A stretch of DNA of 64,000 nt from contig JBCDBL010000002.1 in the NCBI GenBank assembly GCA_039183635.1, forward strand, positions 802-64,801. Reading direction: 5' to 3'. Positions 49,660-63,862 of this stretch are shown here, piece after piece. A program made the translations under genes and the position numbers. This DNA comes from Pseudomonadota bacterium (GTDB taxonomy: Bacteria; Pseudomonadota; Alphaproteobacteria; Caulobacterales; Parvularculaceae). Each line of letters begins with the position of its first letter. The first letter of the stretch is position 1. The notes beneath the pieces were generated by a model. That model did not search any database and was not told the DNA's origin. It worked only from the letters and a program-made list of their open reading frames with translations.

Positions 49660-51213
49660 TTGTCGATATTACGTTCTGCGAAGGATCTCACCAAGCTTTG
49701 GCGCACTGTATTTCAGCGCGTATTCGTCCTGTGGGCCATTGTCATACCCCTCGCCGCCGTCCCGGCCTACAGTCGAGACGCCAACCGAGCTGACCCCTAC
49801 CCGGCTCTCGCCGGGCTGCGTTACGGGATCTCAGTGACCGACCTTGATGGAAACATTCTTGTGGCGCATCGGGCGGATGAACGGTTTACGCCGGCTTCAA
49901 ACGTCAAATTATTCGTGACCGCCGCGGCCCTTGCAGCCCAAACCAAGATTTCGGCGCTGGATGCCGGATTAAAGGTGGTGTTGGAGCCGACTGAGTCCGG
50001 GCCTCCTGCTCTCGTGTTGATAGGACATGGAGATCCGACGATTGGGGCCGGTGCGAATTGCAATGTACGCTGCATCGAAACCCTGGCGGCGGCCGTGGCG
50101 GCGTCAGGGATCGGGCGCGTCGGCGATATTATCGGCGACGATCAATGGTTCGCCGACGAGCGACGCCCCCTGGGGTGGAGTTGGGACGATCTGAAGTTCG
50201 GCCACGGAACATCTATTTCAGCGATCGCTGTCAACGATAATATCCTCTCTTTAAGAGTCTCGCCGGCCCGCGCAGCGGGGACCAGCGTTCGGGCGTCTTG
50301 GGCGGACGCCGGACAAAGCTATTTCGCTCTCAAAAATGGGGCGAAGACCGGCGAGGCAACCAGGCGAAAAGCGCTACGGTTGGAGCGACGCATCGGCGAG
50401 CGCACAGCACGGCTTTACGGTGAACTGCCCATTGGGTCAAAGCCGATGACGCTCGATCTTGGCGTCGACGACCCGGCGCACTTCGCCGCATGGACGTTCA
50501 AGAGAGCGCTGGAGGCCAAAGGCGTTTCGGTTTCAGGACAACTGCGGACCCGCCGCCGCCCCCTCCAATATGCCGACGAACCGCAGTCAACCGACCCAGG
50601 CGTCCCGGACGCCCCGGCTTCTGCGATGGAGTGTATCCCGCAAGGCGAAGTTAGGCCCGCCGAAACCGTGATCGCATCGCTCCCGCCCGCGCCGCTCCAG
50701 GACATCGTAACTGAGATTAACCGCAATAGCCAAAATCTGTACGCCGAAGTTCTGCTTCGGCAATTGGGCCGTACGGCGGGAAGAGGGTCTTCCTTTTGCG
50801 GATTGCTGCAGATCCAGAATCTCTTAGAGGATATCGGAGCGCCCCGTACGTCCTATGACATCGCTGACGGTTCTGGCCTGTCCAGTTATAACCGGGCGAG
50901 CCCCGCGACCATCACCGCCCTCCTCCGTCACGCCGTCGCAGCGCCCTGGGGGGAGGCCTATCGTGCGAGTTTGCCGGTAGGCGGCGCATCGGCGGGGTCG
51001 CTGAAATACCGATTCCGCGGTTCAGCGTTGGAGGGGAAAATCTTTGCAAAGACGGGAACGCTCAATCACGTGGATGCATTATCCGGCTACATGGAGGCCC
51101 GCAGCGGGCAAATGTTGATCTTTTCCATTATTGTGAACGACCGCCCCCTCGACTCCCCGTCTGCAATGCGCGGCATCGACTCCACCCTTCTGATGATTGC
51201 CGAGCAATATTAA
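49660..51213 (+). CDS. dacB: D-alanyl-D-alanine carboxypeptidase/endopeptidase, PBP4 family (peptidase S13)
   Basis: SxxK in TPASNVKLF. KTG box FAKTGTLNHV. N-terminal hydrophobic signal. TTG start 27 nt after the ATPase stop. Confidence 0.8.
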   Translation: MSILRSAKDLTKLWRTVFQRVFVLWAIVIPLAAVPAYSRDANRADPYPALAGLRYGISVTDLDGNILVAHRADERFTPASNVKLFVTAAALAAQTKISALDAGLKVVLEPTESGPPALVLIGHGDPTIGAGANCNVRCIETLAAAVAASGIGRVGDIIGDDQWFADERRPLGWSWDDLKFGHGTSISAIAVNDNILSLRVSPARAAGTSVRASWADAGQSYFALKNGAKTGEATRRKALRLERRIGERTARLYGELPIGSKPMTLDLGVDDPAHFAAWTFKRALEAKGVSVSGQLRTRRRPLQYADEPQSTDPGVPDAPASAMECIPQGEVRPAETVIASLPPAPLQDIVTEINRNSQNLYAEVLLRQLGRTAGRGSSFCGLLQIQNLLEDIGAPRTSYDIADGSGLSSYNRASPATITALLRHAVAAPWGEAYRASLPVGGASAGSLKYRFRGSALEGKIFAKTGTLNHVDALSGYMEARSGQMLIFSIIVNDRPLDSPSAMRGIDSTLLMIAEQY

Positions 51214-51479
51214 ATGCACAGCGCTTTATGACCCTGCCAGGGCGATATCGCCGTTTTCAGGTACAGCACTCATCTTCTGGGCGACTTGAGACGCCGCCAT
51301 ATCCGCGATAGCGATGATCCATAGCGGACCGGAATCCGCGCCCAGCAGCCGACTGCAAGGTTCAGCAGACGCATGACGGCTTATAAGGCGAAAACGCCAT
51401 TTGCGCAGATTTCTTCTGCAGCGACTTGCTTATCTCAATGCCGTTAGTAGTCTGAACGCAGAAACGATGGAGCAAAAAC

Positions 51480-52757
51480 ATGATCCGATACGGTTTGGCT
51501 GGCGCGCTGGCGTTGATCGCTCAGGGCTGCGCACAATCGCTAACAGGAGCGGGAGATTCGCCAACGCTCGACGCCGCCGCCAATGCGTTAAATACTGCTG
51601 CGATCCATGACTCCGTTCTAACCCTTGATGCGCATCTCGATACGCCGGCCCTGTTTCGCCGAGACGGCTACGATTTTTCAGAACGCGGCTCCTTTGCTGA
51701 GGACCAGACCAATGTCGACCTGCCGCGCCTGAAGGACGGTCGGCTCGATGGCGGGTTTTGGGTGATTTACACCGGGCAGGGTCCGCTGGATGAAGCGTCA
51801 TACATCACGGCCCGCACCTCCGCGCTTTTACGACAAATGTCGATCCGGGAAATGACGGCTAAATACGCGGACTTTGTCGAGCTCGCATTCGCTGCAGACG
51901 ATGCGGAACGTATTCAAAAAGAAGGCAAGGTTATTGTTTTTCAGAGCATGGAAAACGCCTATCCGCTGGGAGAGGATATCTCGCTTTTAGAGACCTTTTA
52001 TGTCGGCGGGCTGCGTATGCTAGGCCCTGTGCACTTCAGCAATAATCAGTTTGCGGACAGTTCAACCGATGATGAAGCGCCGTTTGGGGGGCTGAGCCCG
52101 CTTGGCGAGGACTTGGTTCGTGAAGCCAATCGACTGGGAATCATTGTCGATGGATCGCATGCGTCAGACGATGCGTTGCGTGACATGATGGCGGTTTCAA
52201 AGACACCGGTGATTCTGTCCCATAGCGGGCCTGACGGCGTATATGAGCATGCGCGGAACGTGCCCGATGCGTTGCTGCTCGAACTCGCCGAGAGCGGCGG
52301 CGTCATCCATGTCAACGCGTTTGGCGGCTATCTTGAAGAACTGCAGCCCACGCCCGAACGCGCCGCAGCGCTTGATGCGCTTGACGCCGAATACGGCGCC
52401 GACCCGTCGGCCATGCCGGAGGATCAGAGGGCGGCGTACTGGGCAGACCGAAGCGCGCTCGATCAGCAGTTCCCGCGGCCCCGCTCCAGCTTCGAAAAGT
52501 ATGTTGAACACCTTCTTTACACGCTTGACCTTGTCGGGCCGGACCATGTCGGCATCGGCGCCGATTGGGACGGAGGCGGCGGCGTGGACGGCATGGCGGA
52601 TGTCGCCGCCGTGCCAAAGATAACGCAAGCCCTGGTCGACGCCGGATACAGTGAAGCGGACATCGCAAAGATCTGGAGCGGCAATCTCCTGCGATTGATG
52701 CGAGAGGTTGAAGCAGCCAAAACGACGACGCTTCAATCACCCAATGTCGTCAAATAG
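51480..52757 (+). CDS. Membrane (renal-type) dipeptidase, peptidase M19, lipoprotein
   Basis: Lipobox LIAQGC. Zinc-ligand motif LDAHLDTP. HVGIGADWDG block typical of M19. Confidence 0.85.
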   Translation: MIRYGLAGALALIAQGCAQSLTGAGDSPTLDAAANALNTAAIHDSVLTLDAHLDTPALFRRDGYDFSERGSFAEDQTNVDLPRLKDGRLDGGFWVIYTGQGPLDEASYITARTSALLRQMSIREMTAKYADFVELAFAADDAERIQKEGKVIVFQSMENAYPLGEDISLLETFYVGGLRMLGPVHFSNNQFADSSTDDEAPFGGLSPLGEDLVREANRLGIIVDGSHASDDALRDMMAVSKTPVILSHSGPDGVYEHARNVPDALLLELAESGGVIHVNAFGGYLEELQPTPERAAALDALDAEYGADPSAMPEDQRAAYWADRSALDQQFPRPRSSFEKYVEHLLYTLDLVGPDHVGIGADWDGGGGVDGMADVAAVPKITQALVDAGYSEADIAKIWSGNLLRLMREVEAAKTTTLQSPNVVK

Positions 52758-52909
52758 CGTTTGGAACCGACCGCCATTTCTTGACATGGCTCAACACGTC
52801 AAATTGACAAGCAAAGCCAGTATTCGATCTGCTATTCATAAGTACCTGCTTGCGGCGATCTTCGGAGGTCCTGGGCGCAGATCGATACGGCCCTCAGCAG
52901 GCGTTAAAC

Positions 52910-52944
52910 CGTCGTCGCTTTACTCGGAATAGAGACGACGTTTT
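52910..52944 (+). terminator. Possible intrinsic terminator after the dipeptidase gene
   Basis: CGTCGTC / GACGACG 7-bp stem with a 17-nt loop, followed by TTTTCAGTCTTTGTTTTC. Confidence 0.45.
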
Positions 52945-52960
52945 CAGTCTTTGTTTTCTA

Positions 52961-53168
52961 GATTTCCGGACGGCGAACCGCACACACTTCGCCTGGAAAC
53001 GCTTCTTGGTTTTACGCGTTTCCGGACGGCGAACCGTACACACTTCGCCTGGAAACGCTCTTTTGGCAACGCGTTTCCGGACGGCGAACCGTACACACTT
53101 CGCCTGGAAACGCTCTTTTGGCAACGCGTTTCCGGACGGCGAACCGTACACACTTCGCCTGGAAACGC
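52961..53168. repeat. Four tandem copies (period 55-56 bp) of a 43-nt hairpin-forming element GCGTTTCCGGACGGCGAACCGTACACACTTCGCCTGGAAACGC
   Basis: Copies at 52961-53002 (degenerate left arm, one C/T change), 53016-53058, 53071-53113 and 53126-53168. Copies 2-4 are identical. The linkers TCTTTTGGCAAC are identical. Each unit folds as GCGTTTCC/GGAAACGC plus GGCGAA/TTCGCC stems. Confidence 0.9.
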
Positions 53169-53300
53169 TTTAAACGCCTTGCTTATGAGGGTCCGTGACA
53201 TTCAAAAGCGGGAGCATGCAGCGCCCGGTGACGTTACGCTCCATCTCCTGATAGATTAACGCTTGACGATTTCGCTATGTCCCTTGAGAGGAAGACGACG

Positions 53301-55397
53301 ATGAGGCATTTTCTGAAATTCGCTATCACAGGGGCGTTGGCCATCACGCTGGCGGCCTGCACCTCTGAAACCCCATCCGACGAAGAGATTGCGGATGTTC
53401 CGCAGACCTCAACCGAAGACGCCAGCGTAGAGGTTGATGCCGACCTTATCCCGCGGGAGCTGTTTTTCGGCAATCCGACCTATACAAGTGTTCAGATCAG
53501 TCCGGACGGCTCCCGGATAAGCTATCTCGCTCCAGTGGCGGGCGTCATGAATATCTGGGTCGCCCCCGCGGACGATATTCAAGCCGCAACCCCGGTCACC
53601 CGCGACACCGGCCGCGGCGTTCGCAATTATGGCTGGGTCGCCGGCATGGATCGCCTTATCTACATCCAGGACAAGGGGGGAGACGAGAACTTCCTACTTT
53701 ACGGCGTTGATCCCGCCACAGGCGAGGAGACAAATTATACGCCGTTTGAAAACACGCGCGTGATGTTCCTTGCCAGCGACGAGGATATCCCCGGCAAACA
53801 GATTATCGGCGTCAATAACCGCGACCCGCGATGGCATGATGCCTATGAGCTGGATATTGAAACCGGCGCGCTCACCCTGATTTATGAAAATACGGAAGAA
53901 TTCGGCGGCTTCACCTTCGACAATAATCTTGAGCTTCGGTTCGCCGAGAAGTCGACATCTGAAGGCGGCATGGAGTATTATCGCCGCAATGACAGTGGTT
54001 GGGACCTATTCATGGAGGTCTTACCGGAAGATCTGTACACAACCCGCCTTGCCGGATTTAGCGAAGACAACGCCACCCTCTATGTCATCAAAAGCGAGGG
54101 CCGGGACACCGGCGCCTTGTTCGCCATGAATATGCAAAGCGGCGAGAAGACCCTGATTGCGTCCGATGAGCGGGCCGATATTGGCGGCGCCTGGCGCGAC
54201 CCGGAGACTGGCGAACCTTATGTTTACGCTGTCACCTATGACAAAACCCAGTATACGGCGCTTGATGAGCGCGGGGAAGCGATCCTTGCAGCGCTCGACG
54301 CCCATTTTGAGGGTGAGACCTCCCGGGTGTCCGTCACAGACGACGATTCCACATGGGTGCTGGTCAATACCGAATCCGATCAAGTCCCGACCTATTATGT
54401 ATGGGACAGGGACGAAAACAGCTTCACCAAGCTTTTCGCAGTGCGCCCGGCGCTTGAGGACAAGACCCTCGCCGCCATGACGCCGGAGTTGATCCCATCG
54501 CGCGATGGGTTGACCCTTGTGTCTTATCTCACCCTGCCGCCGGGGGCGGATACGGATGGCGACGGGCGTCCCGAACGTCCTGTTCCGATGGTGTTGAATG
54601 TCCATGGCGGTCCGTGGGCGCGGGATTTTTATGGCTATAACCCTACGGCTCAGTGGCTCTCCAACCGAGGCTACGCCGTGCTCCGGGTGAATTTCCGGGG
54701 TTCGACAGGTTTTGGGAAATCCTTTGTCAATGCGGGCAATCTGCAATGGGGCCTCAAAATGCATGACGACCTCATCGATGCTGTCGATTGGGCCGTCGCC
54801 GAAGGGATCACGGCGGACGATACGGTTGCGATTATGGGCGGGTCCTATGGCGGGTATGCGACGCTTGCCGGCCTTACCTTCACGCCGGAGACATTCGCAT
54901 GCGGCGTTGATATCGTCGGGCCGTCAAACCTGATCACTTTACTGGAGTCGATCCCGCCCTATTGGGAGAGCTTTCGCCGGGTGCTTGAAAAACGCGTGGG
55001 CGATCCGAACTCGGAAGAAGGGCGCGCGATCCTTGAAGCGGCCTCGCCGCTGAACAGTGTCGACACGATTACGAAACCCCTTCTCATTGGTCAGGGGGCG
55101 AACGACCCCCGCGTGAAACAAGCCGAATCCGATCAAATCGTCACCGCGATGCAGGACAAGGGCATTCCCGTGACCTATGTGCTCTTCCCGGATGAAGGAC
55201 ATGGCCTCGCACGGCCGGAAAACCGTCTGGCTTTTTACAGCGTCGCAGAGGGCTTCCTGTCCGCCTGCCTCGGCGGCAGGGCTGAACCGATCGGGGACGA
55301 TTTCGAAGGGTCAAGCCTCACCGCGCCAACAGGCGCGGCGTTTATCCACGGCCTGCCGGAGGCGCTTGAAGGGTTCACCCCTGAAGAGCGGGGATAA
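53301..55397 (+). CDS. Peptidase S9 (prolyl oligopeptidase / dipeptidyl- or acylaminoacyl-peptidase family), lipoprotein
   Basis: Lipobox LAAC in MRHFLKFAITGALAITLAACTSE. Nucleophile elbow GGSYGGYA. GANDPRV and DEGHG catalytic-triad contexts. N-terminal beta-propeller-like half. Confidence 0.85.
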   Translation: MRHFLKFAITGALAITLAACTSETPSDEEIADVPQTSTEDASVEVDADLIPRELFFGNPTYTSVQISPDGSRISYLAPVAGVMNIWVAPADDIQAATPVTRDTGRGVRNYGWVAGMDRLIYIQDKGGDENFLLYGVDPATGEETNYTPFENTRVMFLASDEDIPGKQIIGVNNRDPRWHDAYELDIETGALTLIYENTEEFGGFTFDNNLELRFAEKSTSEGGMEYYRRNDSGWDLFMEVLPEDLYTTRLAGFSEDNATLYVIKSEGRDTGALFAMNMQSGEKTLIASDERADIGGAWRDPETGEPYVYAVTYDKTQYTALDERGEAILAALDAHFEGETSRVSVTDDDSTWVLVNTESDQVPTYYVWDRDENSFTKLFAVRPALEDKTLAAMTPELIPSRDGLTLVSYLTLPPGADTDGDGRPERPVPMVLNVHGGPWARDFYGYNPTAQWLSNRGYAVLRVNFRGSTGFGKSFVNAGNLQWGLKMHDDLIDAVDWAVAEGITADDTVAIMGGSYGGYATLAGLTFTPETFACGVDIVGPSNLITLLESIPPYWESFRRVLEKRVGDPNSEEGRAILEAASPLNSVDTITKPLLIGQGANDPRVKQAESDQIVTAMQDKGIPVTYVLFPDEGHGLARPENRLAFYSVAEGFLSACLGGRAEPIGDDFEGSSLTAPTGAAFIHGLPEALEGFTPEERG

Positions 55398-55414
55398 ACA
55401 CAAAGCCCCACATT

Positions 55415-55441
55415 CCCCGGCGCGGAATAAATGCGCCGGGG
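55415..55441 (+). terminator. GC-rich hairpin after the S9 peptidase gene (CCCCGGCGC-N9-GCGCCGGGG)
   Basis: Perfect 9-bp stem 18 nt after the stop. There is no clear T-tract, so terminator function is tentative. Confidence 0.45.
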
Positions 55442-55842
55442 CGCGTCACTCATATGTTCTCGTCTCGACAATCGCCCGATACGCGCGCGCTCCGATTGTC
55501 CTTCCGCAAAGTTCTGTTTTTGCAAAACAATCGTGAACGGCATGCCCGGACATTAAGCGCTTTGGAAACTCGTGATTATTTTACAACAGCTTTTTGGTTA
55601 GATCTTAGCGGGGAATTGCGCACCGCTTAAAAAGTGTTCTATCATACGAGTATGGCTAACTTGGAACATAACCAAGTCATTGGACGCTGTTCCGTCGACT
55701 ACCAACTCAGCGAGTGGTTCGACGAGTGATCCCTGCGCCGGGGCAACAGCGCCGGCGGTCACCCCTATGATGTGAGCCCGCGCTGCGGCCTCGGCCTATC
55801 AAATTAAACACAATGTTTAATCTGTCAGGCAGGGGAAAAGCC

Positions 55843-58665
55843 ATGAAAAATCATCAGAATTTACTTCGCATATTGTTGTTGAGCACAGCAATCGTCGCAC
55901 CGTCGGCATATGCGCAAGATACCGGCGTTGAGACCGTTCCGGACCAACCGGAAACGGCGTCGCCGGAGGATACGTTTGTCATCACAGGCACCCGTATCAA
56001 AGGACTGCAGGTAGACGGCGCCGTTCAGGCAATTACGGTGGACCGGGATGACCTCCTGGAGTCAGGACAATCATCGCTCGCCGAAGCGCTAAGAGAGCTG
56101 CCGGTGACCGGCGGGGGGCGCGGCACGTTCACCACATCCACGGCAGGCGCTTTGTCTGGCGACACGCCGCCTGGCGCTGCGACCGTCTCTCTGCGCGGGC
56201 TTGGCCCAAGCTCCACCCTCACCCTCATCAATGGGCGCCGTGCTGCGATTTCATCTTTTGCTCTGGGCCAAGAAAACTTTATTGACGTCAATGCGATCCC
56301 GTTCGCCGCAGTCGACCGGGTGGAGGTGTTGCCGAACGGCGCCTCGGCCATTTACGGCGCCGACGCTATCGCAGGCGTTGTAAACTATGTGCTGCGTGAC
56401 GACTTCAACGGATTTGAGGTGGAAACATCGTACGGAAACTCCACCGCCGACACGGATGAAGGCCGCTTCAATGTAAACGCCGTATGGGGACGGGCCAATG
56501 AAACCCGGTCCGTCATGCTGGTGGCTGACTATTATAAGCGTAATGCCTTTTTTGACCGTGATCGCGACAGTACGGCAAATAGCGTCAGGCCAAGCCAGCA
56601 GGGATTTTACCCGAGCTTTAACGACTTGTTCTTAATGACCTTTGACCAAACCGAAGAACCGGAAGATGGGGGCTGTCCGGCCGATGACTTCGGTTTCGGC
56701 GGCCTGGGCGAGTTCTGCGAGGTCAACACCAATGCGTTTACATCCACGGAAGACGCGTATGAAAGCCTGTCATTTATGGGCGTGTTCAAGCAAGATTTAG
56801 GCGCCAATACAACGTGGTTTAATGAATTTATCTTTTCTACAAACGATAGCGAAGGCACGTCCTCCCCTGCAAACTTCTCCCGCGCGCCGGTCGACCCTGA
56901 GAACCCTTTCTTTCCCGCTGCGCTTATCGACGATATTGTTGAAGAAGCAAGGCTTGAAGACTCAAATGCGGTTTACCCCGACTTTTTCGGCTTTCCGATT
57001 TTTGCATGGGGCAAGTTCCTGGACCCTCGCGCAGTTGAAGTTGAGAGTAAAACCTGGCGCATTGTCTCAGGCATTGAGCACGAAGCAGACAATGGCTGGA
57101 ACTATGAGGCGGCCCTCATCTATGGCCGCAACAAATCCACGCAGCGCGGTCTGTCTGGCCTCTACCGCTCAGAACCATTTTACGACGCTCTTTTGGGTAA
57201 TGTGTGTACCGACGGTACGCGCGTGGAACGCTGGGATGTCGACCCTGAACGACCGAATGCGTTCTTTATTGGCGATACATGTGAAGATACTGGACGCACC
57301 ACCCTTTGGTACAATCCCTTCGGCGGTCAAGTGAACCAGGAAGACGGCATCGACGCGCTCATACGCACCGACGCGGAGCGCAACGGTGAAGCCAGCATGT
57401 TCATCGCCGACTTCGCCATGTCCGGGGAGCTCACGCAGTTTCGAGGGCGTGCGGTGAGTGCGGCGTTCGGGGCGGAATATCGGTATGAGGAGGTGGAGGA
57501 CACGCCGTCCGGCGCAGCCGTGGCGACACGGGATAATCCGGAGCCCATCCTTGGTTTTTCCTCCACTTCAGCCGACGCCGACCGCGCCCAGTGGGCGGCG
57601 TTTGGCGAGCTGTATATCCCGCTTGCAGATGAATTGGATTTACAACTCGCCGCCCGGTACGACTCCACCGACGATTACGGCGACAGCTTCAATCCGAAAG
57701 TCGCACTTCGATACCAACCGTTTGAACAGCTTGTTTTACGCGGAAATTGGTCGACCTCGTTCCGTGCGCCCTCCCTGGCGCAGGTCGGCGCCGGCACGAG
57801 GCTGACGTCCTTTACCGTGGACTGTACGATAACGCCGGGGGCCTGTGATGGAGATTCTGGCGCCGACGGCTTGGCTTTGCTGTCTGAAGAAGTCGGCAAT
57901 CTCAACCTCGACCCGGAGGAAGCTGAAACGTGGTCGATCGGCGCTGTGTTCGAGCCAACCGAAAACGTCACATTTACGGTTGATTTTTGGAATATCCGCC
58001 ATGAAGACCTTGTCGGCGTTGATGAAGATGACTTCATCGTACGCGCGCTGGCGGGCGAATTCGCCGTCATCGACGTGGCCAATGGCTTCTTGCCGACCGG
58101 TACGCCAGGGCTTGAGGTGACCAACGGATTTGTCACGGATGCGCACTTTGCATTGACCAACCTTGGTTACCAGGAAACCAGCGGTATCGATGCGACATAC
58201 ACCCAGTATATTGACTTGAACGCGGGTACGTTAGCTTTCCTTGTCGACGGCAGTTACTTGCTCGAGTTCGAACGTCAAGCCTCAGACGGTGCGGACGTTA
58301 TCGATGAAGCCGGCGAATTCACTTATCCGCAATTGCGGCTTCGCGGAACGGCGCGGTGGACCCAAGGGCCCTTACGTTTGTCGGCAAGCGTCGATTACAC
58401 CTCCGACTATGAAGATGACCCAAGCAATCGTGTTCGCGATGCGCTTGGCATCGCCGACGACGCGGAGGTTACAGTCGACAGTTGGACAACCGTCGACCTT
58501 TCAGCGATCTACGACCTTGGAGAAAGCTCATTCGTTCAGCTGTCCGTGCAAAACGTGTTTGACGAGGAACCGCCGTTGGCCCTTGGCACAGGGGCGAATG
58601 TGGACTTCTTCAACCACGACAGTCTCGGTCGGTTCGTCACCCTTCGCCTCGGCCACAGCTTCTAA
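55843..58665 (+). CDS. TonB-dependent outer-membrane receptor
   Basis: SD AGGGGAAAAG, then MKNHQNLLRILLLSTAIVAPSAYAQ. TonB-box/plug EDTFVITGTRI...VSLRGLG. C-terminal barrel ending RLGHSF with the terminal aromatic residue. Confidence 0.9.
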   Translation: MKNHQNLLRILLLSTAIVAPSAYAQDTGVETVPDQPETASPEDTFVITGTRIKGLQVDGAVQAITVDRDDLLESGQSSLAEALRELPVTGGGRGTFTTSTAGALSGDTPPGAATVSLRGLGPSSTLTLINGRRAAISSFALGQENFIDVNAIPFAAVDRVEVLPNGASAIYGADAIAGVVNYVLRDDFNGFEVETSYGNSTADTDEGRFNVNAVWGRANETRSVMLVADYYKRNAFFDRDRDSTANSVRPSQQGFYPSFNDLFLMTFDQTEEPEDGGCPADDFGFGGLGEFCEVNTNAFTSTEDAYESLSFMGVFKQDLGANTTWFNEFIFSTNDSEGTSSPANFSRAPVDPENPFFPAALIDDIVEEARLEDSNAVYPDFFGFPIFAWGKFLDPRAVEVESKTWRIVSGIEHEADNGWNYEAALIYGRNKSTQRGLSGLYRSEPFYDALLGNVCTDGTRVERWDVDPERPNAFFIGDTCEDTGRTTLWYNPFGGQVNQEDGIDALIRTDAERNGEASMFIADFAMSGELTQFRGRAVSAAFGAEYRYEEVEDTPSGAAVATRDNPEPILGFSSTSADADRAQWAAFGELYIPLADELDLQLAARYDSTDDYGDSFNPKVALRYQPFEQLVLRGNWSTSFRAPSLAQVGAGTRLTSFTVDCTITPGACDGDSGADGLALLSEEVGNLNLDPEEAETWSIGAVFEPTENVTFTVDFWNIRHEDLVGVDEDDFIVRALAGEFAVIDVANGFLPTGTPGLEVTNGFVTDAHFALTNLGYQETSGIDATYTQYIDLNAGTLAFLVDGSYLLEFERQASDGADVIDEAGEFTYPQLRLRGTARWTQGPLRLSASVDYTSDYEDDPSNRVRDALGIADDAEVTVDSWTTVDLSAIYDLGESSFVQLSVQNVFDEEPPLALGTGANVDFFNHDSLGRFVTLRLGHSF

Positions 58666-58676
58666 CAGCTGTTTTC

Positions 58677-58730
58677 ATCGGGTAGCCTGTCTATGCGTTG
58701 GCGTCAGCCAACACTTTAAGGCTACCCGAT
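58677..58730 (+). promoter_or_regulatory. Intercistronic stem-loop: 11-bp perfect inverted repeat ATCGGGTAGCC...GGCTACCCGAT enclosing a GTTGGC/GCCAAC hairpin
   Basis: Read directly from the sequence. It lies between the receptor stop (58665) and the SD/ATG of the next gene (GGAG at 58735, ATG at 58746). Confidence 0.5.
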
Positions 58731-58745
58731 CATTTGGAGTGGGCA

Positions 58746-60182
58746 ATGACAGACCATGGCGCGGCAAAGCCGCAAATGCGGGCGCCCGATACGCTATTGA
58801 TCGTATTCGGGATCGCCTTTTTTGCCTGGATTGCAACTTATATCGTGCCGCGCGGCGCGTTTGGCGGCGGCAGTGAGGGCTTTTCTCTTAAAACCTTCAC
58901 ATCCAGCGGCATAGAGGGCGCGCCGCTTTTCGGGAACGACGAGGCCGTTGGCCTGCTGAACTTCTTCTTTGAGGGCTTGGTCAGCGGGGATCGCTACGGC
59001 GCAACCATAGGGTTGATGGCCTTCCTCTTAATCGTGGGCGGCGCCTTTGGGGTTATCTCAAAAACACGCGCCCTGGAAAGAGCGTTAACGGGATTCTTAA
59101 ATGGGTCGGATCAGATGACGGATTGGTCCCTGGGCGTGCTCTTTATACTGTTCTCCCTTGCCGGTGCAGTCTTCGGGATGGGCGAGGAAGCGATTGTTTT
59201 TGTCGTCGTCCTGGCCCCTGCGCTGTTGCGCGCCGGCTATGATCGTCCGACAGCTGTAATTGTCGCCTACGTCGCAACGCAGATCGGCTTCGCCACAAGC
59301 TGGATGAACCCATTTTCGGTCACTGTGGCCCAAGGCATCGCACAGTTGCCAGCTCTGTCAGGTTGGGAGTTTCGCGCCGCGATGTGGGCTGTCTTTACCC
59401 TGCTCGGAGCGATATGGGTTGTTTGGCGCGCAACGGGCGTTCGGCAAAGACCTCAGCCAAGCGACGCGTCATCTGCGGCCCCCCTTGAACACCTAGACAG
59501 CCGCCTGAAACTCGGCCATTGGCTCATCATTGCAGTCGTAACCCTTGGAATCATTTGGATCGCATGGGGTGTCGCCGTCAATCGGCATTACTTTCCCGAG
59601 ATCAGCGCCCAGTTTTTCGCGATTGGCCTTGCAGCTGGCTTCATCGCCATACTGTTCAAACTGGAAGGCATGACGCCAAATGATGCATTGACCGGTTTTC
59701 GCGATGGCGCTGCGGGCCTTTTGCCGGCTGTCCTGATCATCGGAGCGGCCAAAGGCATCGTTCTGCTTCTCGGCGGTGACGACCCGTCGTCACAAAGCGT
59801 ATTGAATACAGCGCTCCATGCAATGGGCGGCGCAACACAAGACTTGCCCCCGTCGGTTTCTGCTGTCGGAATGTTCGGCCTGCAATCCGTCATCAACCTT
59901 TTTGTTGTTTCAGGTTCGGGACAGGCCGCGCTTACAATGCCCATAATGGCGCCGTTGGCCGATCTGAACGGGCTATCCCGCCAGATAGCGGTTTTATCCT
60001 TTCAACTGGGGGATGGTCTGACAAACCTTATTTGCCCGGCGTCCGCCGCATTAATGGGGTCCCTGGCCGCCGCACGCGTGGAATGGACGTCGTGGCTTAG
60101 CGTTATTTGGAAACCGCTTCTGGTCGCAATGTTTTTGGCGGTCGCCTTTATCCTCACGGCTGTTAGCATAGGATATTCATAA
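58746..60182 (+). CDS. YfcC/DcuC-type (C4-dicarboxylate anaerobic carrier fold) membrane transporter
   Basis: 478-aa polytopic protein. The N-terminus ...APDTLLIVFGIAFFAWIATYIVPRGAF resembles the YfcC family start. I chose the start at 58746 (SD GGAG) rather than 58698. Confidence 0.7.
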   Translation: MTDHGAAKPQMRAPDTLLIVFGIAFFAWIATYIVPRGAFGGGSEGFSLKTFTSSGIEGAPLFGNDEAVGLLNFFFEGLVSGDRYGATIGLMAFLLIVGGAFGVISKTRALERALTGFLNGSDQMTDWSLGVLFILFSLAGAVFGMGEEAIVFVVVLAPALLRAGYDRPTAVIVAYVATQIGFATSWMNPFSVTVAQGIAQLPALSGWEFRAAMWAVFTLLGAIWVVWRATGVRQRPQPSDASSAAPLEHLDSRLKLGHWLIIAVVTLGIIWIAWGVAVNRHYFPEISAQFFAIGLAAGFIAILFKLEGMTPNDALTGFRDGAAGLLPAVLIIGAAKGIVLLLGGDDPSSQSVLNTALHAMGGATQDLPPSVSAVGMFGLQSVINLFVVSGSGQAALTMPIMAPLADLNGLSRQIAVLSFQLGDGLTNLICPASAALMGSLAAARVEWTSWLSVIWKPLLVAMFLAVAFILTAVSIGYS

Positions 60183-60186
60183 ACAT

Positions 60187-61419
60187 ATGATGCGTATAAA
60201 GGCCATATTCACTTTTCTTCTCATCAGCCTGTCGCCGCAAGCGGCAATGTCAGAAGGACGGCTCATTATAGCGGGAGGCGCGGTTGCAAAAGCCAACGCC
60301 CCTGTGTGGGAAGCGTTTATCGAAAGTCTGCCTGAAGAAGGGCACGTCTTCGTCGTTGCCGCGGCGTCCTCCGCACCTTCTTCGTCAGCACAAAGCGCAC
60401 GCTCCGCGTTAGCATCCCATGGGCTTGCCATGGAGCGCATCAAAGTCGCACCGCTCGCCGTTCTGGACGATAAAGGCACGCCGAGTACAAACGAATCAAA
60501 ATGGCGTAAAAACGCCTTTGATTCTAAGCTATCCAACATGCTGCAAGAGGCCGCCGGGTTCTGGTTTACCGGCGGCGACCAGTTGAGAATTACAAACCTG
60601 TTACAAGATGGAGAAGAAGCCCCTGCCCTAACCGCCATTCGTCGAGCTCATGCAAATGGCGCCAGTCTCGGCGGCGCCAGCGCCGGCGCCGCTATTATGA
60701 GCGACCTGATGATATATGGCGGGGAAAGTCTTTCCGCACTTCTCCAGCCTCCAACTCGGAGCGGCGGAGACGGACTGCTCATCACGCAAGGCCTTGGTTT
60801 TTTTACCCATGGCGTCGTTGACCAACATTTTGGAGAACGGGCGCGCCTCGGCCGCCTTATTCGAGCCATCTCCATTCTTCCTCAACCTGAGCAGCGGCTC
60901 GGTTTTGGAATCGATGAAGGCACAGCGCTTGTTGTAGACGCAGCGGGCCGCCTGTCCGTTGTCGGGGAAAATTATGTCACTGTTGTGGACGGAACGACGG
61001 CGGCTTTTAGCGAAACAAAGGGAAGATTATCCGTTAACGGTTTAACTCTTCATCTGCTCGGGCCAACAGACGCCTTAAACCTTGCCACCGGCGCCGTCAC
61101 ACCGGCCGCGTATCGCAAGGCAACGGTTACAAATCCATACTTCAACACCCCCCTGCCCGGAGGCGGCGGCATGGCTTTGAACGGCCAAACCCTTTCAAGC
61201 GTGATTGGCGACGGGCTGGTCGATAACGCAGCCGCCAGCCAAATAATAAGAGACAGTTTTGATGATAAAGGCCGGGGCGCCAGATATCGCTTTACGCAAC
61301 GGTCAAACACCAGAGGGTTTTGGGGACGGAATAAAAACAATGTCGCACATTACTCAGTCATTAGTGTAAAGATGGATGTTATCCCAATACAAGTCACCAT
61401 TGAAGAGTTAGATCATTGA
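60187..61419 (+). CDS. cphE: Exported cyanophycinase (peptidase S51, CphE-like)
   Basis: Signal peptide MMRIKAIFTFLLISLSPQAAMS. Motifs FTGGDQLRIT, GGASAGAAIMS (nucleophile Ser) and VVDQHFGERARLGRL are the conserved cyanophycinase blocks. Confidence 0.8.
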   Translation: MMRIKAIFTFLLISLSPQAAMSEGRLIIAGGAVAKANAPVWEAFIESLPEEGHVFVVAAASSAPSSSAQSARSALASHGLAMERIKVAPLAVLDDKGTPSTNESKWRKNAFDSKLSNMLQEAAGFWFTGGDQLRITNLLQDGEEAPALTAIRRAHANGASLGGASAGAAIMSDLMIYGGESLSALLQPPTRSGGDGLLITQGLGFFTHGVVDQHFGERARLGRLIRAISILPQPEQRLGFGIDEGTALVVDAAGRLSVVGENYVTVVDGTTAAFSETKGRLSVNGLTLHLLGPTDALNLATGAVTPAAYRKATVTNPYFNTPLPGGGGMALNGQTLSSVIGDGLVDNAAASQIIRDSFDDKGRGARYRFTQRSNTRGFWGRNKNNVAHYSVISVKMDVIPIQVTIEELDH

Positions 61420-62300
61420 CCACAGAACACCGATACGCCCTTGCCATTCACGGCGGCGCCGGCCCGCGTCCAGGTAGAGATTATTCGGAAGTCGAAGACC
61501 ACTTACGTCGCGTAATATATAACGGCGAGCGCCTTCTTCTAAAAGGCTGGGCTGCGATAGACGTCGTTCAGGAAGTGGTGACGGATATGGAGACAAGCGG
61601 TCTTTACGTCGCAGGTCGCGGCACAGCGCCCAACGCAGCAGGCTGGTACGAAATGGACGCATCCATTATGGATGGCGCACGCGCCAAGGCGGGCGGCGTT
61701 GCAGCTGTGCAAGATTTGGAAAGCCCCATCAAAGCGGCGCGCGCCGTCCTCGAAAACACCGCCCACGTCTTGCTTGTCGGGCAAGGCGCAAATTTGTTAG
61801 CAACCTCTTTAGGGCACAAGCGCATCAGTCAACCTGAATCCTGGTACAGATTGCCGGTTGGCGTTACTTCAGAAGAAGCAACCGCGGATGAGCTCTCTCA
61901 CGGCACGGTCGGCGCCGTCGCCCTGGATAAACAAGGGCGGCTCGCCGCAGCGACATCCACTGGAGGTTTATTTGGCCGCAGAGCAGGACGCATTGGGGAC
62001 TCTGGAATTATCGGATATGGGTCGTGGGCCGATGAACAAGTCGCTGTCTCTTGTACGGGAATCGGCGAGTGCTTCATACTGGGCGGCGGCGCCAGAGAGG
62101 TCGCTTCAAGAATACGGCACAAACACGATGCCTTGCATATGGCTGTAAGGGGCATGCTAACAGATGTTGAACGCTGGGGCGGCGATGGCGGGGCCATCGC
62201 CATCAATAAGAAAGGCGAGGTTGTCTGCATGTTTAATTCACAAGGACTGAAACATGCCTACGTCAGCCAGGGCGAACCAGCAAAAGTTGCGGTTTTTTAG
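61416..62300 (+). CDS. iaaA: Isoaspartyl peptidase / L-asparaginase (Ntn hydrolase, IaaA-like)
   Basis: TTG start overlapping the cphE stop. AIHGGAG N-terminus. Autoprocessing site HGTVGAVALD. No signal peptide. Confidence 0.85.
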   Translation: MTTEHRYALAIHGGAGPRPGRDYSEVEDHLRRVIYNGERLLLKGWAAIDVVQEVVTDMETSGLYVAGRGTAPNAAGWYEMDASIMDGARAKAGGVAAVQDLESPIKAARAVLENTAHVLLVGQGANLLATSLGHKRISQPESWYRLPVGVTSEEATADELSHGTVGAVALDKQGRLAAATSTGGLFGRRAGRIGDSGIIGYGSWADEQVAVSCTGIGECFILGGGAREVASRIRHKHDALHMAVRGMLTDVERWGGDGGAIAINKKGEVVCMFNSQGLKHAYVSQGEPAKVAVF

Positions 62301-62614
62301 CTTCGATACTTTGACCAAAAAGGCTCATTACTATCAAACCCTTTAAAACCACCATCAAGCTCTCTGTAAAATATCCGCCTTAAAACAAAAGATTTATGAA
62401 ATAGCGCACTTGGACCACATTGCTTTGAACCAGTTGTGGGAAGAACTTGGCGACTGGAAGCAGGTTCTGGAACGCTACGATTTCTGAATCTTTGCCAGTA
62501 CCTCGCATTATCTCACACAACCTTACATGCCTTTTTGGGTATTAACGGGTTGAGTTTTGGGTATTTTTCTTAATTAACTTGATTTTATGGATATTTTTGG
62601 ATATATTTATGGGT

Positions 62615-63673
62615 ATGAGCTACAATCTCGATACCCTACAAATTACACCTGAAATTCTGTCTCTCATTGCAGAGATCGATGAGTTCAAAGGTGCATGGCA
62701 AGCGCTCGGTACGTTGGCGCCAGAAAGACTATCTGCGCTTCGGCATGTGGCGACTATTGAGAGCATTGGTTCGTCCACACGGATCGAGGGGAGTAAACTT
62801 TCTGACATTGAAGTTGAACGTCTTCTGAGTAAGTTGGCTGTTCAAACCTTTGAAACGCGAGATGGGCAGGAAGTCGCGGGCTATGCAGAAGTTATGGAGC
62901 TGATCTTTCAAAGCTACGATCAAATTCCGCTTTCAGCGAACTACGTCAAGCAACTCCATAAAGACGTTTTGAAATATAGCACGAAAGATGCTCATCATCG
63001 CGGTGAATACAAAACTTCACCCAACCACGTCAGCGCGTTTGATCCAGACGGAAAAGAAATCGGCATTGTGTTCGAAACAGCGACGCCGTTCGATACGCCT
63101 CGATTTATGAATGATCTGCTTATTTGGACAGTTGATACATTGGAAGCGAATAAGCTGCATCCGCTGCTTGTGGTCTCGATATTTATCGTCGTTTTTTTAG
63201 AAATCCATCCGTTTCAGGATGGAAACGGCAGGCTATCGCGCGTGTTAACAACATTGCTCTTACTGAAAACCGGATATAGCTATGTTCCATACAGCTCAAT
63301 GGAAAGCATCATTGAGCAAAACAAGGAAAGCTACTATATCGCCTTACGAAGAACTCAGGGCACAATCCGCACCGATCATCCGGACTGGCAGCCATGGGTG
63401 CAGTTTTTTCTACAAACATTGCAAAATCAGAAAAAGCGTCTTGAGATCAAAATCGAGCGTGAACAGATTTCTTTAAAAACGCTTCCAGAGCTTTCTATTC
63501 AAATTCTGGAAATCGCGAAACAGCATGGCCGCATTACAAATGCGATGATTACCAAGACAACAGGCGCAAACCGAAACACCATCAAAGCACATTTAAGACA
63601 ATTGGTTGAAACGAACCAGCTTGAGAAACACGGTACAGGTAAAGGGACTTGGTATTCTCGAACGTCGTCCTAG
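62615..63673 (+). CDS. Fic-domain protein (AMPylase-type motif) with N-terminal inhibitory helix and C-terminal wHTH
   Basis: Canonical Fic motif HPFQDGNGRLSR. Inhibitory (S/T)xxxE(G/N) motif in SSTRIEGS. C-terminal HTH-like NRNTIKAHLRQLVETNQLEKHG. AT-rich relative to flanks. The start could be 62579, 62609 or 62615. Confidence 0.85.
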   Translation: MSYNLDTLQITPEILSLIAEIDEFKGAWQALGTLAPERLSALRHVATIESIGSSTRIEGSKLSDIEVERLLSKLAVQTFETRDGQEVAGYAEVMELIFQSYDQIPLSANYVKQLHKDVLKYSTKDAHHRGEYKTSPNHVSAFDPDGKEIGIVFETATPFDTPRFMNDLLIWTVDTLEANKLHPLLVVSIFIVVFLEIHPFQDGNGRLSRVLTTLLLLKTGYSYVPYSSMESIIEQNKESYYIALRRTQGTIRTDHPDWQPWVQFFLQTLQNQKKRLEIKIEREQISLKTLPELSIQILEIAKQHGRITNAMITKTTGANRNTIKAHLRQLVETNQLEKHGTGKGTWYSRTSS

Positions 63674-63785
63674 CGAGCAAGATTCGAACCGAGAAAACTA
63701 TTTACTTTCAGATAGATAAGCGGCTTTAATCTGAACAGTCTCAAAAGGTTGGAAATTTATCCAAACAAAATCAATGACTTGTACG

Positions 63786-63862
63786 TGGCGCACCGGGGAG
63801 GATTCGAACCCCCGACCCCCAGATTCGTAGTCTGGTGCTCTATCCAGCTGAGCTACCGGTGC
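63786..63862 (-). tRNA. tRNA-Arg (anticodon ACG), CCA encoded
   Basis: The reverse complement reads GCACCGGTAGCTCAGCTGGATAGAGCACCAGACTACGAATCTGGGGGTCGGGGGTTCGAATCCTCCCCGGTGCGCCA. It forms a cloverleaf with anticodon loop CTACGAA and is near-identical in layout to E. coli tRNA-Arg(ACG). Confidence 0.95.

What the first reader, a model, noticed from the sequence alone, without database searches (positions are those of the whole stretch)
55843..62300. Cyanophycin-utilisation locus coupled to a TonB-dependent receptor
Seen: four co-directional genes with short gaps or overlaps encode a TonB-dependent receptor, a YfcC-type inner-membrane carrier, a signal-peptide-bearing cyanophycinase (GGDQLRIT, GASAGAA, DQHFGERARLGRL) and a cytoplasmic isoaspartyl peptidase (GTVGAV), which starts inside the cyanophycinase stop. 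Established: CphE-type cyanophycinases cleave cyanophycin to beta-Asp-Arg/Lys dipeptides, and isoaspartyl dipeptidases hydrolyse those dipeptides. Inference: the compartment logic suggests active outer-membrane uptake of cyanophycin fragments via the receptor, periplasmic depolymerisation, dipeptide import by YfcC and cytosolic cleavage. TonB-dependent uptake of cyanophycin-derived material and a YfcC-type beta-dipeptide carrier are, to my knowledge, not experimentally described.
Basis: partly seen in the sequence, partly recalled or inferred. Interest (0 to 1): 0.6.

Follow-up and report, generated by a model that had tools for sequence, protein, structure and literature searches.

The report
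Cyanophycin-scavenging cassette with TonB receptor
This bacterium cannot make the nitrogen-storage polymer cyanophycin, but it carries a widely conserved gene cassette (outer-membrane receptor, inner-membrane carrier, exported cyanophycinase, cytoplasmic dipeptidase) that most likely lets it feed on other microbes' cyanophycin, and a small conserved leader peptide not found in the papers or family libraries searched sits in front of it.

Summary
Four co-directional genes encode a TonB-dependent receptor (55843-58665), a YfcC-type carrier (58747-60182), a 410-aa CphE-type cyanophycinase with an N-terminal signal sequence (60187-61419) and an IaaA-type isoaspartyl peptidase (61416-62300, start overlapping the cphE stop).

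The genome has no cyanophycin synthetase, so the locus is a scavenging system.

The coupling to the receptor is not chance:
- Starting from CphE, the same receptor orthologue (52-70% identity) lies next to it in many Alpha- and Gammaproteobacteria.
- Starting from eight receptor orthologues picked without regard to CphE, 8/8 have CphE and an isoaspartyl dipeptidase adjacent, and 7/8 have YfcC.
- In Gammaproteobacteria IaaA is replaced by the unrelated IadA.

Whether CphE acts outside the cell or in the periplasm cannot be decided from sequence. I favour extracellular release of beta-Asp-Arg and receptor uptake of the dipeptide.

The pairing of a TonB receptor with cyanophycinase was already predicted from gene context (Tang 2012; Ben Hania 2017 as cited by Sharon 2023). 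I found no experiments.

New here is a conserved 25-codon leader peptide (ending SEWFDE-stop, 55652-55729) followed by a hairpin, found ahead of the cassette in 18 loci. This scan has reported the same cassette and leader on other genomes.

The parts
55652..55729 (+). Leader peptide ORF (25 codons, ends ...SVDYQLSEWFDE-stop)
   Evidence: The same peptide lies upstream of the first cassette gene in 18 loci. Codon-position entropy is 13.0/10.2/21.7, Ser codons switch between TCN and AGC, and all three stop codons are used. The 15-nt motif is unique in the genome. The 24-nt pattern has no hit in 400 other genomes.
55736..55757 (+). GC-rich hairpin 6 nt after the leader stop codon
   Evidence: A hairpin starts 1-22 nt after the leader stop in 18/18 loci. 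Mean dG is -9.0 against -4.1 for shuffles. The sequences differ while the position is kept.
55843..58665 (+). TonB-dependent receptor (940 aa from ATG 55843), unnamed subfamily
   Evidence: Plug plus barrel. It scores below the cut-off of every NCBIfam TBDR model. Orthologues at 52-71% identity are linked to cphE.
58677..58730 (+). Nested stem-loop between receptor and yfcC
   Evidence: MFE of the 85-nt gap is -36.5 kcal/mol, z = -5.0, with 0 of 200 shuffles as stable. A strong hairpin directly after the receptor stop is seen in about 14 of the 17 loci folded, by my reading of the printed folds.
58747..60182 (+). YfcC-type (DcuC/ArcD-like) inner-membrane carrier
   Evidence: NF008611 'putative basic amino acid antiporter YfcC', 546 bits against a cut-off of 500. 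PF03606. It is adjacent to CphE in Proteobacteria and lies within the ±8-kb flanks in Firmicutes and Bacteroidales loci.
60187..61419 (+). CphE-type cyanophycinase, signal sequence plus S51 domain plus C-terminal domain of about 100 aa
   Evidence: TIGR02069 scores over its cut-off. Catalytic and pocket residues are conserved. AF2 model has pLDDT 91.8, and its best PDB matches are cyanophycinases 7uqv/7uqw/3en0.
61416..62300 (+). IaaA-type isoaspartyl peptidase (Ntn hydrolase), no signal peptide
   Evidence: PF01112. T164 aligns with the first residue of the processed beta subunits of solved IaaA structures.

Best explanation
This is a self-contained cassette for scavenging exogenous cyanophycin.
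1. CphE is exported through Sec and hydrolyses cyanophycin to beta-Asp-Arg (or beta-Asp-Lys) dipeptides, most likely outside the cell or at its surface.
2. The dedicated TonB-dependent receptor pumps the cyanophycin-derived beta-aspartyl peptide, most likely the dipeptide, across the outer membrane.
3. YfcC carries it across the inner membrane.
4. Cytoplasmic IaaA splits it into Asp and Arg.

Expression is probably set by a translated leader peptide whose stop codon lies just upstream of a hairpin. A strong hairpin after the receptor gene probably sets the ratio of receptor to downstream products.

Shown: gene identities, conserved residues, absence of cphA, two-way synteny, dipeptidase displacement, and conservation of the leader at the peptide level.

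Inferred: substrates of the receptor and YfcC, location of CphE, and function of the leader and hairpins.
For: Gene families.

CphE residues: Q132, S165, D212-Q213-H214, R218, R220, R223 and E244 are invariant in 26 homologues. They align with the GGDQ, SAGA, DQHF..R.R..R and GIDE motifs of solved CphB. The fold matches cyanophycinases with TM 0.85-0.89.

No cphA over the cut-off in a 96.7%-complete genome.

Forward synteny: TBDR-YfcC-CphE-IaaA is found in Parvularculaceae, Maricaulis, Oceanicaulis, Erythrobacter, Sphingopyxis, Brevundimonas and others. A rearranged version is found in Microbulbifer, Haliea and Parahaliea. The same order holds in a genome of the same order as this one.

Reverse synteny: 8/8 receptor orthologues have CphE and a dipeptidase adjacent, and 7/8 have YfcC.

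IaaA is replaced by IadA (TIGR01975 over its cut-off in 3 of 4 tested) in the gamma versions. Aspartase lies next to cphE in one Microbulbifer.

Only these four genes are conserved; the flanks vary.

Both alternative dipeptidases have the lengths of the cytoplasmic forms, so a carrier across the inner membrane is required, and YfcC is the only one in the cassette.

CphE is described as the extracellular form, and cyanophycinase as an exo-enzyme giving dipeptides (PMC10206079). T2SS secretins are present.

Leader and hairpins.
Against: No experiment of any kind is available.

The location of CphE is unknown. Nothing in the sequence separates a periplasmic from a secreted enzyme.

A 289-Da dipeptide could also cross through porins, so the need for a 940-aa receptor is an argument from ecology, not a result.

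The hairpin after the receptor gene could be a terminator, which would make the receptor a separate transcript.

The closest solved structure by E-value is deposited as a 'pseudo-CphB'. I could not read what that name implies.

IaaA enzymes from such clusters are promiscuous (PMC10206079). The last step is therefore not specific to cyanophycin.
Confidence: 0.75

Rival explanations
1. The receptor imports soluble cyanophycin chains or oligomers. CphE stays in the periplasm and degrades them there. YfcC then imports the dipeptides and IaaA cleaves them, in the style of a PUL.
For: CphE has only a Sec-type signal and no recognisable secretion or anchoring motif. The PUL-like cyanophycin locus of Bacteroidota is cited as precedent. 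A large 940-aa receptor is typical of receptors for oligomers. CphE is always encoded next to the receptor. Periplasmic depolymerisation would keep the products private.
Against: The cassette has no second, endo-acting enzyme to make importable fragments. Cyanophycinase is described as an exo-enzyme, and CphE as extracellular. From my own knowledge, cyanophycin is largely insoluble and 25-100 kDa in size. Homologues of the same 400-aa family in Firmicutes must act outside the cell. T2SS secretins are available.
Confidence: 0.3
2. The cassette is a general salvage system for isoaspartyl (beta-Asp) peptides from damaged proteins. The S51 protein is a dipeptidase-E-like or otherwise non-cyanophycinase peptidase.
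For: IaaA and IadA are promiscuous beta-aspartyl dipeptidases. The IaaA here is below the E. coli equivalog cut-off. A 'pseudo-CphB' exists among solved structures. The upstream neighbours are peptidases (S9, M19, PBP4).
Against: The TIGR02069 equivalog scores over its cut-off, whereas the generic S51 Pfam match is only 38.7 bits. All Arg-rich pocket residues of CphB are invariant. PepE is a much weaker structural match, with TM 0.37-0.38 on the query length and 0.60-0.64 on the target. The upstream peptidase genes are not conserved with the cassette.
Confidence: 0.07
3. The receptor is an unrelated (for example iron or siderophore) receptor that merely sits upstream, as source annotations such as 'Fe transport' suggest.
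For: Source names for orthologues read 'outer membrane receptor protein involved in Fe transport'. There is a strong hairpin between the receptor and yfcC.
Against: 8/8 orthologues are adjacent to CphE, in two different gene orders. The receptor scores below the cut-offs of all siderophore, haem and B12 receptor models. The leader peptide precedes whichever cassette gene comes first, including cphE itself in Saccharospirillum.
Confidence: 0.03

Closest known systems
Cyanophycin-scavenging clusters / 'cyanophycin utilization locus' (Ben Hania et al. 2017 for strain L21-Spi-D4, as described in Sharon et al. 2023, PMC10206079)
   Same: Cyanophycinase and an isoaspartyl dipeptidase are clustered with a transporter in a genome without cphA1. 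Sharon et al. count 30 of 32 such iaaA genomes as clustered.
   Different: This is a proteobacterial cassette with a classical TonB-dependent receptor (no SusD partner), a YfcC carrier and a leader peptide. The 2023 survey does not mention TonB or YfcC (0 occurrences of 'tonb' and 'permease').
TBDT next to cyanophycinase in Citromicrobium sp. JLT1363 (Tang et al. 2012, PMC3400609)
   Same: Same idea from gene context: cyanophycin listed as a predicted TBDT substrate in a marine alphaproteobacterium of the Erythrobacter group. That group also carries this cassette.
   Different: It was a single adjacency in a figure. There was no orthologue survey, no YfcC or IaaA link, no leader and no experiment.
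Extracellular cyanophycinase CphE of Pseudomonas anguilliseptica BI (Obst et al. 2002, cited)
   Same: A signal-peptide-bearing S51 cyanophycinase of about 410-420 aa (size from my memory) that is longer than CphB and is used to feed on foreign cyanophycin.
   Different: I could not compare the sequences directly. Localisation of the enzyme here is unknown, and it is embedded in a receptor-carrier-dipeptidase cassette.
AotJQMP/AotO (CphZ) route for beta-Asp-Arg in Pseudomonas aeruginosa (PMC9974463)
   Same: Uptake of free beta-Asp-Arg followed by cytoplasmic hydrolysis, shown by mutants. It shows that bacteria do feed on the free dipeptide.
   Different: Non-homologous parts. P. aeruginosa uses an ABC importer and an M14-type CphZ, where this cassette has YfcC and IaaA. 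It has no dedicated outer-membrane receptor and no cyanophycinase.
Ligand-sensing ribosome-arrest leader peptides (TnaC, SpeFL, fungal arginine attenuator peptide)
   Same: A short conserved peptide whose last residues before the stop codon are the most conserved, placed ahead of a catabolic or uptake operon, with an RNA element immediately downstream of the stop. AAP is a 24-residue peptide that stalls in response to arginine, with a critical Asp-12 (PMC7038982). From memory its core (S-x-D-Y-L-S-D..W) resembles S-x-D-Y-x-L-S-E-W here.
   Different: No stalling has been shown. It matches no NCBIfam or Rfam family. The resemblance to AAP is recalled from memory and was not verified in text, and the spacing to the stop codon differs.

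Membership tests
Cyanophycinase (S51, TIGR02069), CphE type | Family model over the curated cut-off | tested here: met
   193.4 bits against a cut-off of 126.6.
Cyanophycinase (S51, TIGR02069), CphE type | Ser-His-Glu catalytic residues and the Gln/Asp/Gln/3xArg substrate pocket of CphB | tested here: met
   S165, H214, E244, Q132, D212, Q213, R218, R220 and R223 are invariant in 26 homologues. They are aligned to 3en0 and 7uqv. The residue numbering of CphB is from my memory of Law et al. 2009.
Cyanophycinase (S51, TIGR02069), CphE type | Export signal and extra C-terminal domain that distinguish CphE from the roughly 270-aa intracellular CphB | tested here: met
   Judged by eye, the N-terminus has a charged stretch followed by a hydrophobic stretch. 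Solved CphB structures cover only about the first 290 residues. Residues 310-410 form a confident extra domain with no PDB match. No signal-peptide predictor was available.
Cyanophycinase (S51, TIGR02069), CphE type | Hydrolysis of cyanophycin to beta-Asp-Arg | not testable with these tools
   Needs an enzyme assay.
IaaA-type isoaspartyl peptidase (Ntn hydrolase, PF01112) | Family model, and the Thr nucleophile at the autoprocessing site | tested here: met
   PF01112 scores 240.7 bits. T164 aligns with residue 1 of the beta subunits in 1jn9, 8dqm and others.
IaaA-type isoaspartyl peptidase (Ntn hydrolase, PF01112) | Equivalog of E. coli IaaA (NF007589) | tested here: not met
   176.8 bits against a cut-off of 567. 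It is a family member, not an E. coli equivalog.
YfcC family (NF008611; Pfam DcuC) | Family model over the curated cut-off | tested here: met
   546.4 bits against a cut-off of 500.
YfcC family (NF008611; Pfam DcuC) | Transported substrate (a basic amino acid or beta-Asp-Arg) | not testable with these tools
   No paper links YfcC and cyanophycin. The only evidence is gene context.
TonB-dependent receptor | Plug plus 22-strand barrel domains, signal peptide, TonB box, C-terminal Phe | tested here: met
   PF07715 and PF00593. AYA/Q cleavage site, DTFVITG and a terminal F are seen in the sequence.
Named TBDR subfamilies (siderophore, haem, B12, SusC/RagA, Xanth-Caul) | Any subfamily model over its cut-off | tested here: not met
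   All 18 matches are far below their cut-offs. The SusC model did not match this receptor. It matched two orthologues only far below its cut-off: 27.4 and 18.2 bits against 368.
Cyanophycin scavenging cluster (sensu Sharon 2023 / Ben Hania 2017) | Cyanophycinase and isoaspartyl dipeptidase within 5 kb, transporter adjacent, no cphA1 in the genome | tested here: met
   The genes overlap. YfcC and the TBDR are adjacent. There is no cphA over the cut-off.
Bacteroidota-type PUL | SusC/SusD pair | tested here: not met
   No SusD-like gene lies in the cassette. The receptor is not SusC-type.
Regulatory (arrest or attenuator) leader peptide | Selection on the peptide rather than on the RNA | tested here: met
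   Third codon positions vary about twice as much as first and second. Ser codon families are swapped, and all three stop codons are used.
Regulatory (arrest or attenuator) leader peptide | Ligand-dependent ribosome stalling that controls downstream expression | not testable with these tools
   Needs toeprinting and reporter fusions.

The most novel reading that the evidence does not exclude
The conserved leader peptide (consensus ..R-x-S-V-[DQE]-[YF]-x-L-[STA]-[ED]-W-F-[ND]-E-stop) is a ribosome-arrest peptide. It senses arginine or beta-Asp-Arg in the exit tunnel, stalls at its stop codon, prevents the adjacent hairpin from forming and so switches on the cyanophycin cassette. This would be a bacterial counterpart of the fungal arginine attenuator peptide and of SpeFL/TnaC. 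With it, the receptor would be the first TonB-dependent transporter assigned to a beta-aspartyl dipeptide.
Probability: 0.3. Interest if true: 0.8.

Novelty: new variant of a known kind. Interest (0 to 1): 0.58.

Why it matters
Cyanophycin locks up large amounts of fixed nitrogen in cyanobacteria. How marine heterotrophs recover it after cell lysis is known only in outline.

This cassette gives a complete, testable route from polymer to Asp plus Arg, with a specific candidate for each membrane step:
- It would assign substrates to a large unnamed subfamily of TonB-dependent receptors, which sources currently annotate as iron receptors.
- It would assign a substrate to the poorly understood YfcC carriers.
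- The leader peptide offers a new candidate metabolite-sensing nascent peptide in bacteria, of which only a handful are known.

Tried and rejected
- Rfam found nothing in 55300-62700.
- NCBIfam has no model for the leader.
- A metagenome scan with the receptor alone gave only two loci. One was the closest relative, with the same gene order.
- Sampling 300 and 400 genomes of the same class found neither the receptor orthologue nor the leader pattern outside this genome. Only two receptor candidates were scored per genome. This shows that the cassette is sporadic and the pattern specific, but it gave no extra loci.
- My crude ORF clustering mis-called several genes in GC-rich loci because of antisense ORFs. 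I relied on tblastn and on the called genes of the look-up of encoding contigs instead.
- One locus (L114) at first seemed to lack cphE, which would have argued for dipeptide-only scavenging. tblastn showed that the gene is there, split into two frames, so I dropped that argument.
- A classical Arg-codon attenuator was considered and rejected. The Arg-Arg pair is not conserved (R-C, R-T, R-V, C-R occur), while the C-terminal W-F-[ND]-E is.
- I could not find the paper that defines 'pseudo-CphB', nor the printed sequence of the fungal AAP.
- The organism was not identified. The closest relatives of all four proteins are MAGs of Parvularculaceae, Hyphomonadaceae and Maricaulaceae.


Full report
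**1. What is there**

Between 55.6 and 62.3 kb of the window, all on the + strand, lie four genes.

- A TonB-dependent receptor. The ORF runs 55813-58665, and the likely start is ATG 55843, preceded by AGGGGA. It has Plug and barrel domains.
- A YfcC-type carrier. The ORF starts at TTG 58698, but the likely start is ATG 58747, preceded by GGAG. It matches NF008611 with 546 bits against a cut-off of 500.
- A 410-residue S51 peptidase at 60187-61419. It passes the cyanophycinase equivalog model TIGR02069 with 193 bits against a cut-off of 126.6.
- A 294-residue Asparaginase_2/IaaA-type protein at 61416-62300.

The yfcC stop and the cphE ATG are 4 nt apart. The iaaA TTG overlaps the cphE TGA as TTGA.

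A terminator-like hairpin follows the upstream S9 peptidase gene. About 445 nt then separate that gene from the receptor. After the iaaA stop, G+C falls from about 55% to about 45%, and a Fic gene follows. The four genes are therefore bounded on both sides.

**2. The enzymes look functional**

*CphE.* In an alignment of 26 homologues (40-58% identical to the window protein), the following residues are invariant:
- the GGDQ glutamine (Q132);
- the serine of G-x-SAGA (S165);
- D212-Q213-H214;
- R218, R220 and R223;
- the glutamate of GIDE (E244).

They align with the corresponding motifs of the solved Synechocystis enzyme 3en0 and of 7uqv. The spacing after the histidine (+4, +6, +9, +27 in CphB) matches what I remember of CphB: Ser132/His174/Glu201 and Arg178/180/183.

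An AlphaFold model built on this alignment is confident (pLDDT 91.8). Its best PDB matches are the three cyanophycinase entries (TM 0.84-0.89 on the target). Peptidase E is far behind.

The solved enzymes cover only about the first 290 residues. Residues 310-410 form an extra beta-rich domain that is conserved in the family and has no PDB counterpart.

The N-terminus (MMRIK followed by a hydrophobic stretch and an Ala-rich end) looks like a Sec signal, and all homologues have one. This is judged by eye, because no predictor was available.

*IaaA.* T164 aligns with the first residue of the processed beta subunits of solved isoaspartyl peptidases. These include 8dqm, deposited as an isoaspartyl aminopeptidase. 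The protein starts directly with the mature domain, so it is cytoplasmic.

**3. It is a scavenging system**

The genome (96.7% complete) has one cyanophycinase. It has no cyanophycin synthetase: the best match to TIGR02068 scores 44 bits against a cut-off of 850.

Sister genera of the same family instead carry a long CphA-like gene next to a fused double-S51 protein. That pairing points to an internal cyanophycin cycle.

**4. The receptor really belongs to the cassette**

*Forward test.* I fetched 80 genomic loci that encode relatives of the cyanophycinase and searched them with the window's four proteins.

- TBDR-YfcC-CphE-IaaA is found in the same order. Receptor identity is 53-70%, higher than that of the cyanophycinase itself (39-50%).
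- Named records with this order include Maricaulis, Aquidulcibacter, Oceanicaulis, Erythrobacter, Sphingopyxis, Brevundimonas and Sandaracinobacter, plus unnamed alphaproteobacterial MAGs.
- A Parvularculaceae MAG has the first three genes in the same order, but no IaaA hit.
- A genome of the same order as the window's has the full cassette.
- So does the closest metagenomic relative, at 89/73/60/72% identity for the four proteins.
- Outside the four genes nothing is conserved.

*Gammaproteobacterial versions.* In Microbulbifer, Haliea, Parahaliea, Halioglobus and Exilibacterium the same receptor orthologue (52-62%), YfcC and CphE are present in other gene orders. IaaA is replaced by an amidohydrolase that matches the IadA equivalog TIGR01975, over its cut-off in 3 of 4 tested.

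IaaA and IadA are unrelated enzymes with the same beta-aspartyl dipeptidase activity. Their exchange within one module is strong evidence that the module's product is a beta-aspartyl dipeptide. One Microbulbifer also has aspartase next to cphE.

*Reverse test.* From the list of receptor homologues I took eight orthologues (58-64% identical). I chose them on long contigs and without a contig-length match to my CphE list, and read their neighbourhoods.
- All eight have CphE adjacent. One copy is split into two frames.
- All eight have IaaA or IadA adjacent.
- Seven have YfcC adjacent.

*What the receptor is not.* It is below the cut-off of every named receptor model in NCBIfam. Sources label orthologues 'Fe transport', which is probably wrong.

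*YfcC beyond Proteobacteria.* YfcC homologues also lie within the ±8-kb flanks of CphE in Firmicutes and Bacteroidales.

**5. How it most likely works**

The receptor is in the outer membrane, YfcC in the inner membrane and the dipeptidase in the cytoplasm. These assignments follow from family knowledge and from the presence or absence of signal sequences. What remains open is where CphE works and what the receptor carries.

I favour extracellular or surface depolymerisation with receptor uptake of beta-Asp-Arg:
- The literature read here calls CphE the extracellular form and cyanophycinases exo-enzymes that yield dipeptides (PMC10206079).
- The cassette has no second, fragment-making enzyme.
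- The same 400-residue family in Firmicutes must act outside the cell.
- The genome has three GspD-type secretins.
- P. aeruginosa is known to grow on free beta-Asp-Arg (PMC9974463).

It cannot be excluded. I give it about 0.3.

**6. Regulation**

*A conserved leader peptide.* While comparing the regions upstream of the receptor genes, I found a shared motif. It is the end of a small ORF.

- In the window it is the 25-codon ORF at 55652-55729, ending ...SVDYQLSEWFDE-stop.
- The same peptide is present in 18 loci including the window. Its consensus is ..R-x-S-V-[DQE]-[YF]-x-L-[STA]-[ED]-W-F-[ND]-E-stop.
- These include Gammaproteobacteria. It always sits ahead of the first gene of the cassette. 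In Saccharospirillum that gene is cphE itself.

*It is translated.* Summed entropy over the last 19 codons is 13.0, 10.2 and 21.7 for codon positions 1, 2 and 3. A conserved Ser uses both TCN and AGC codons, and all three stop codons occur.

*It is specific to this locus.* The 15-nt motif occurs once in this genome. A 24-nt version occurs in none of 400 other genomes of the class.

*A hairpin follows it.* A hairpin of varying sequence starts 1-22 nt after the stop codon in all 18 loci. Mean dG is -9.0 against -4.1 kcal/mol for shuffles. In the window it lies at 55736-55757. In about two-thirds of the loci it starts 11 nt or less after the stop, within reach of a ribosome paused there.

*Alternative regulators.* The leader was not found in the Halieaceae-type loci, which start with an RpiR-family regulator instead. 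It was also not found in a Brevundimonas locus. There the receptor ORF is longer (1017 aa). Some similarly long receptor homologues carry an STN signalling domain (PF07660), but I did not scan the Brevundimonas protein itself.

Alternative regulatory devices at the same place suggest that the leader is itself a regulatory device.

*What kind of device.* Its strictly conserved C-terminus argues for a nascent-peptide (arrest) mechanism. A classical codon-starvation attenuator is unlikely, because the Arg-Arg pair is not conserved. No Rfam or NCBIfam family matches.

From memory, the core resembles the fungal arginine attenuator peptide. The papers read here confirm that this peptide has 24 residues, responds to arginine and depends on Asp-12. 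I could not verify its sequence in text, so this is only a lead.

*The hairpin after the receptor gene.* A second structure, the nested hairpin at 58677-58730, is very stable: -36.5 kcal/mol, z = -5.0. A GC-rich hairpin directly after the receptor stop recurs, with different sequences, in about 14 of the 17 loci I folded, by my reading of the printed folds. Some are followed by a T-run.

It may be a partial terminator or a 3'-end stabiliser that makes the receptor more abundant than the downstream products. In one relative the gap is only 9 nt, so co-transcription is likely at least there.

**7. What was known**

- Tang et al. 2012 showed a TBDT next to a cyanophycinase gene in Citromicrobium and listed cyanophycin among predicted TBDT substrates.
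- Sharon et al. [quoted passage not shown] They cite Ben Hania et al. 2017 for a 'cyanophycin utilization locus'. From memory, that paper describes a PUL-like transport complex in a Bacteroidota isolate. It is not in the library.
- I found no paper that links YfcC with cyanophycin.
- I found no experiment on a cyanophycin-related TonB receptor.
- I did not search the papers for the leader peptide itself. No NCBIfam or Rfam family matches it.
- This scan has already reported the same cassette and leader on other genomes (e1-3144114, e1-5273722). I read those notes after finding the leader myself.

**8. Verdict**

The order of the extracellular and periplasmic steps is open, and nothing is tested at the bench.

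The locus is a proteobacterial variant of a known, computationally described kind. Three elements are new:
- a dedicated receptor subfamily;
- a nearly constant YfcC partner;
- a conserved leader peptide.

Noticed in passing
window 62301-63862: G+C drops from about 55% to about 45% right after the iaaA stop, and a Fic/DOC plus wHTH gene (62579-63673) follows. It marks the 3' boundary of the cassette.
   Followed up: no
L120:4938-11125 (G007, same family); also L013-L017: Sister genera lack this cassette. They carry a 1321-aa CphA-like protein (Cyanophycin_syn N-domain, ATP-grasp, Mur ligase) directly followed by a 734-aa protein with two S51 domains. This would be an internal cyanophycin cycle with a fused double cyanophycinase.
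   Followed up: partly
L113:2477-3376, L114:2429-3328, L115:2531-3418, L050:1620-2495, L035:1511-2422: Halieaceae-type versions of the cassette begin with an RpiR-family regulator (HTH_6 plus SIS), and the leader peptide was not found in them. A SIS-domain regulator for a dipeptide pathway is unexpected.
   Followed up: partly
L056 (Brevundimonas MAG); proteins P0171, P0199, P0200, P0205: Some receptor orthologues of about 1015 aa carry an N-terminal STN signalling domain (PF07660), which suggests control by cell-surface signalling in those lineages. The Brevundimonas receptor ORF is similarly long (1017 aa) and its locus shows no leader motif. I did not scan it for STN.
   Followed up: no
L114:8929-10090: The cphE next to this receptor orthologue is split into two reading frames and was called as two unannotated genes. 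It is either a frameshift or an assembly error.
   Followed up: partly
L041:9256-10731: Aspartate ammonia-lyase (TIGR00839, just over its cut-off) lies directly after cphE in Microbulbifer guangxiensis. It links the cassette to Asp catabolism.
   Followed up: no
L083:123-1016, L041:8-826, L118:12358-14811: Several gammaproteobacterial loci have a second S51 paralogue beside the long CphE: short forms of about 270-300 aa in Microbulbifer and a second long one in Exilibacterium. Two enzymes could divide outside and periplasmic work.
   Followed up: no
It ends 6 nt before the leader's ATG, and no Shine-Dalgarno sequence precedes that ATG. The leader may therefore be translated from a leaderless transcript. 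The consensus scan did not report this pair.
   Followed up: no
window 49660-55397: Upstream on the same strand lie PBP4 (S13), an M19 membrane dipeptidase and an S9 prolyl-oligopeptidase-family protein. They are not conserved with the cassette in other genomes.
   Followed up: partly
G000 contigs C165, C5, C28: The genome has three GspD-type secretins over the TIGR02517 cut-off, which suggests several type II secretion or related systems.
   Followed up: no
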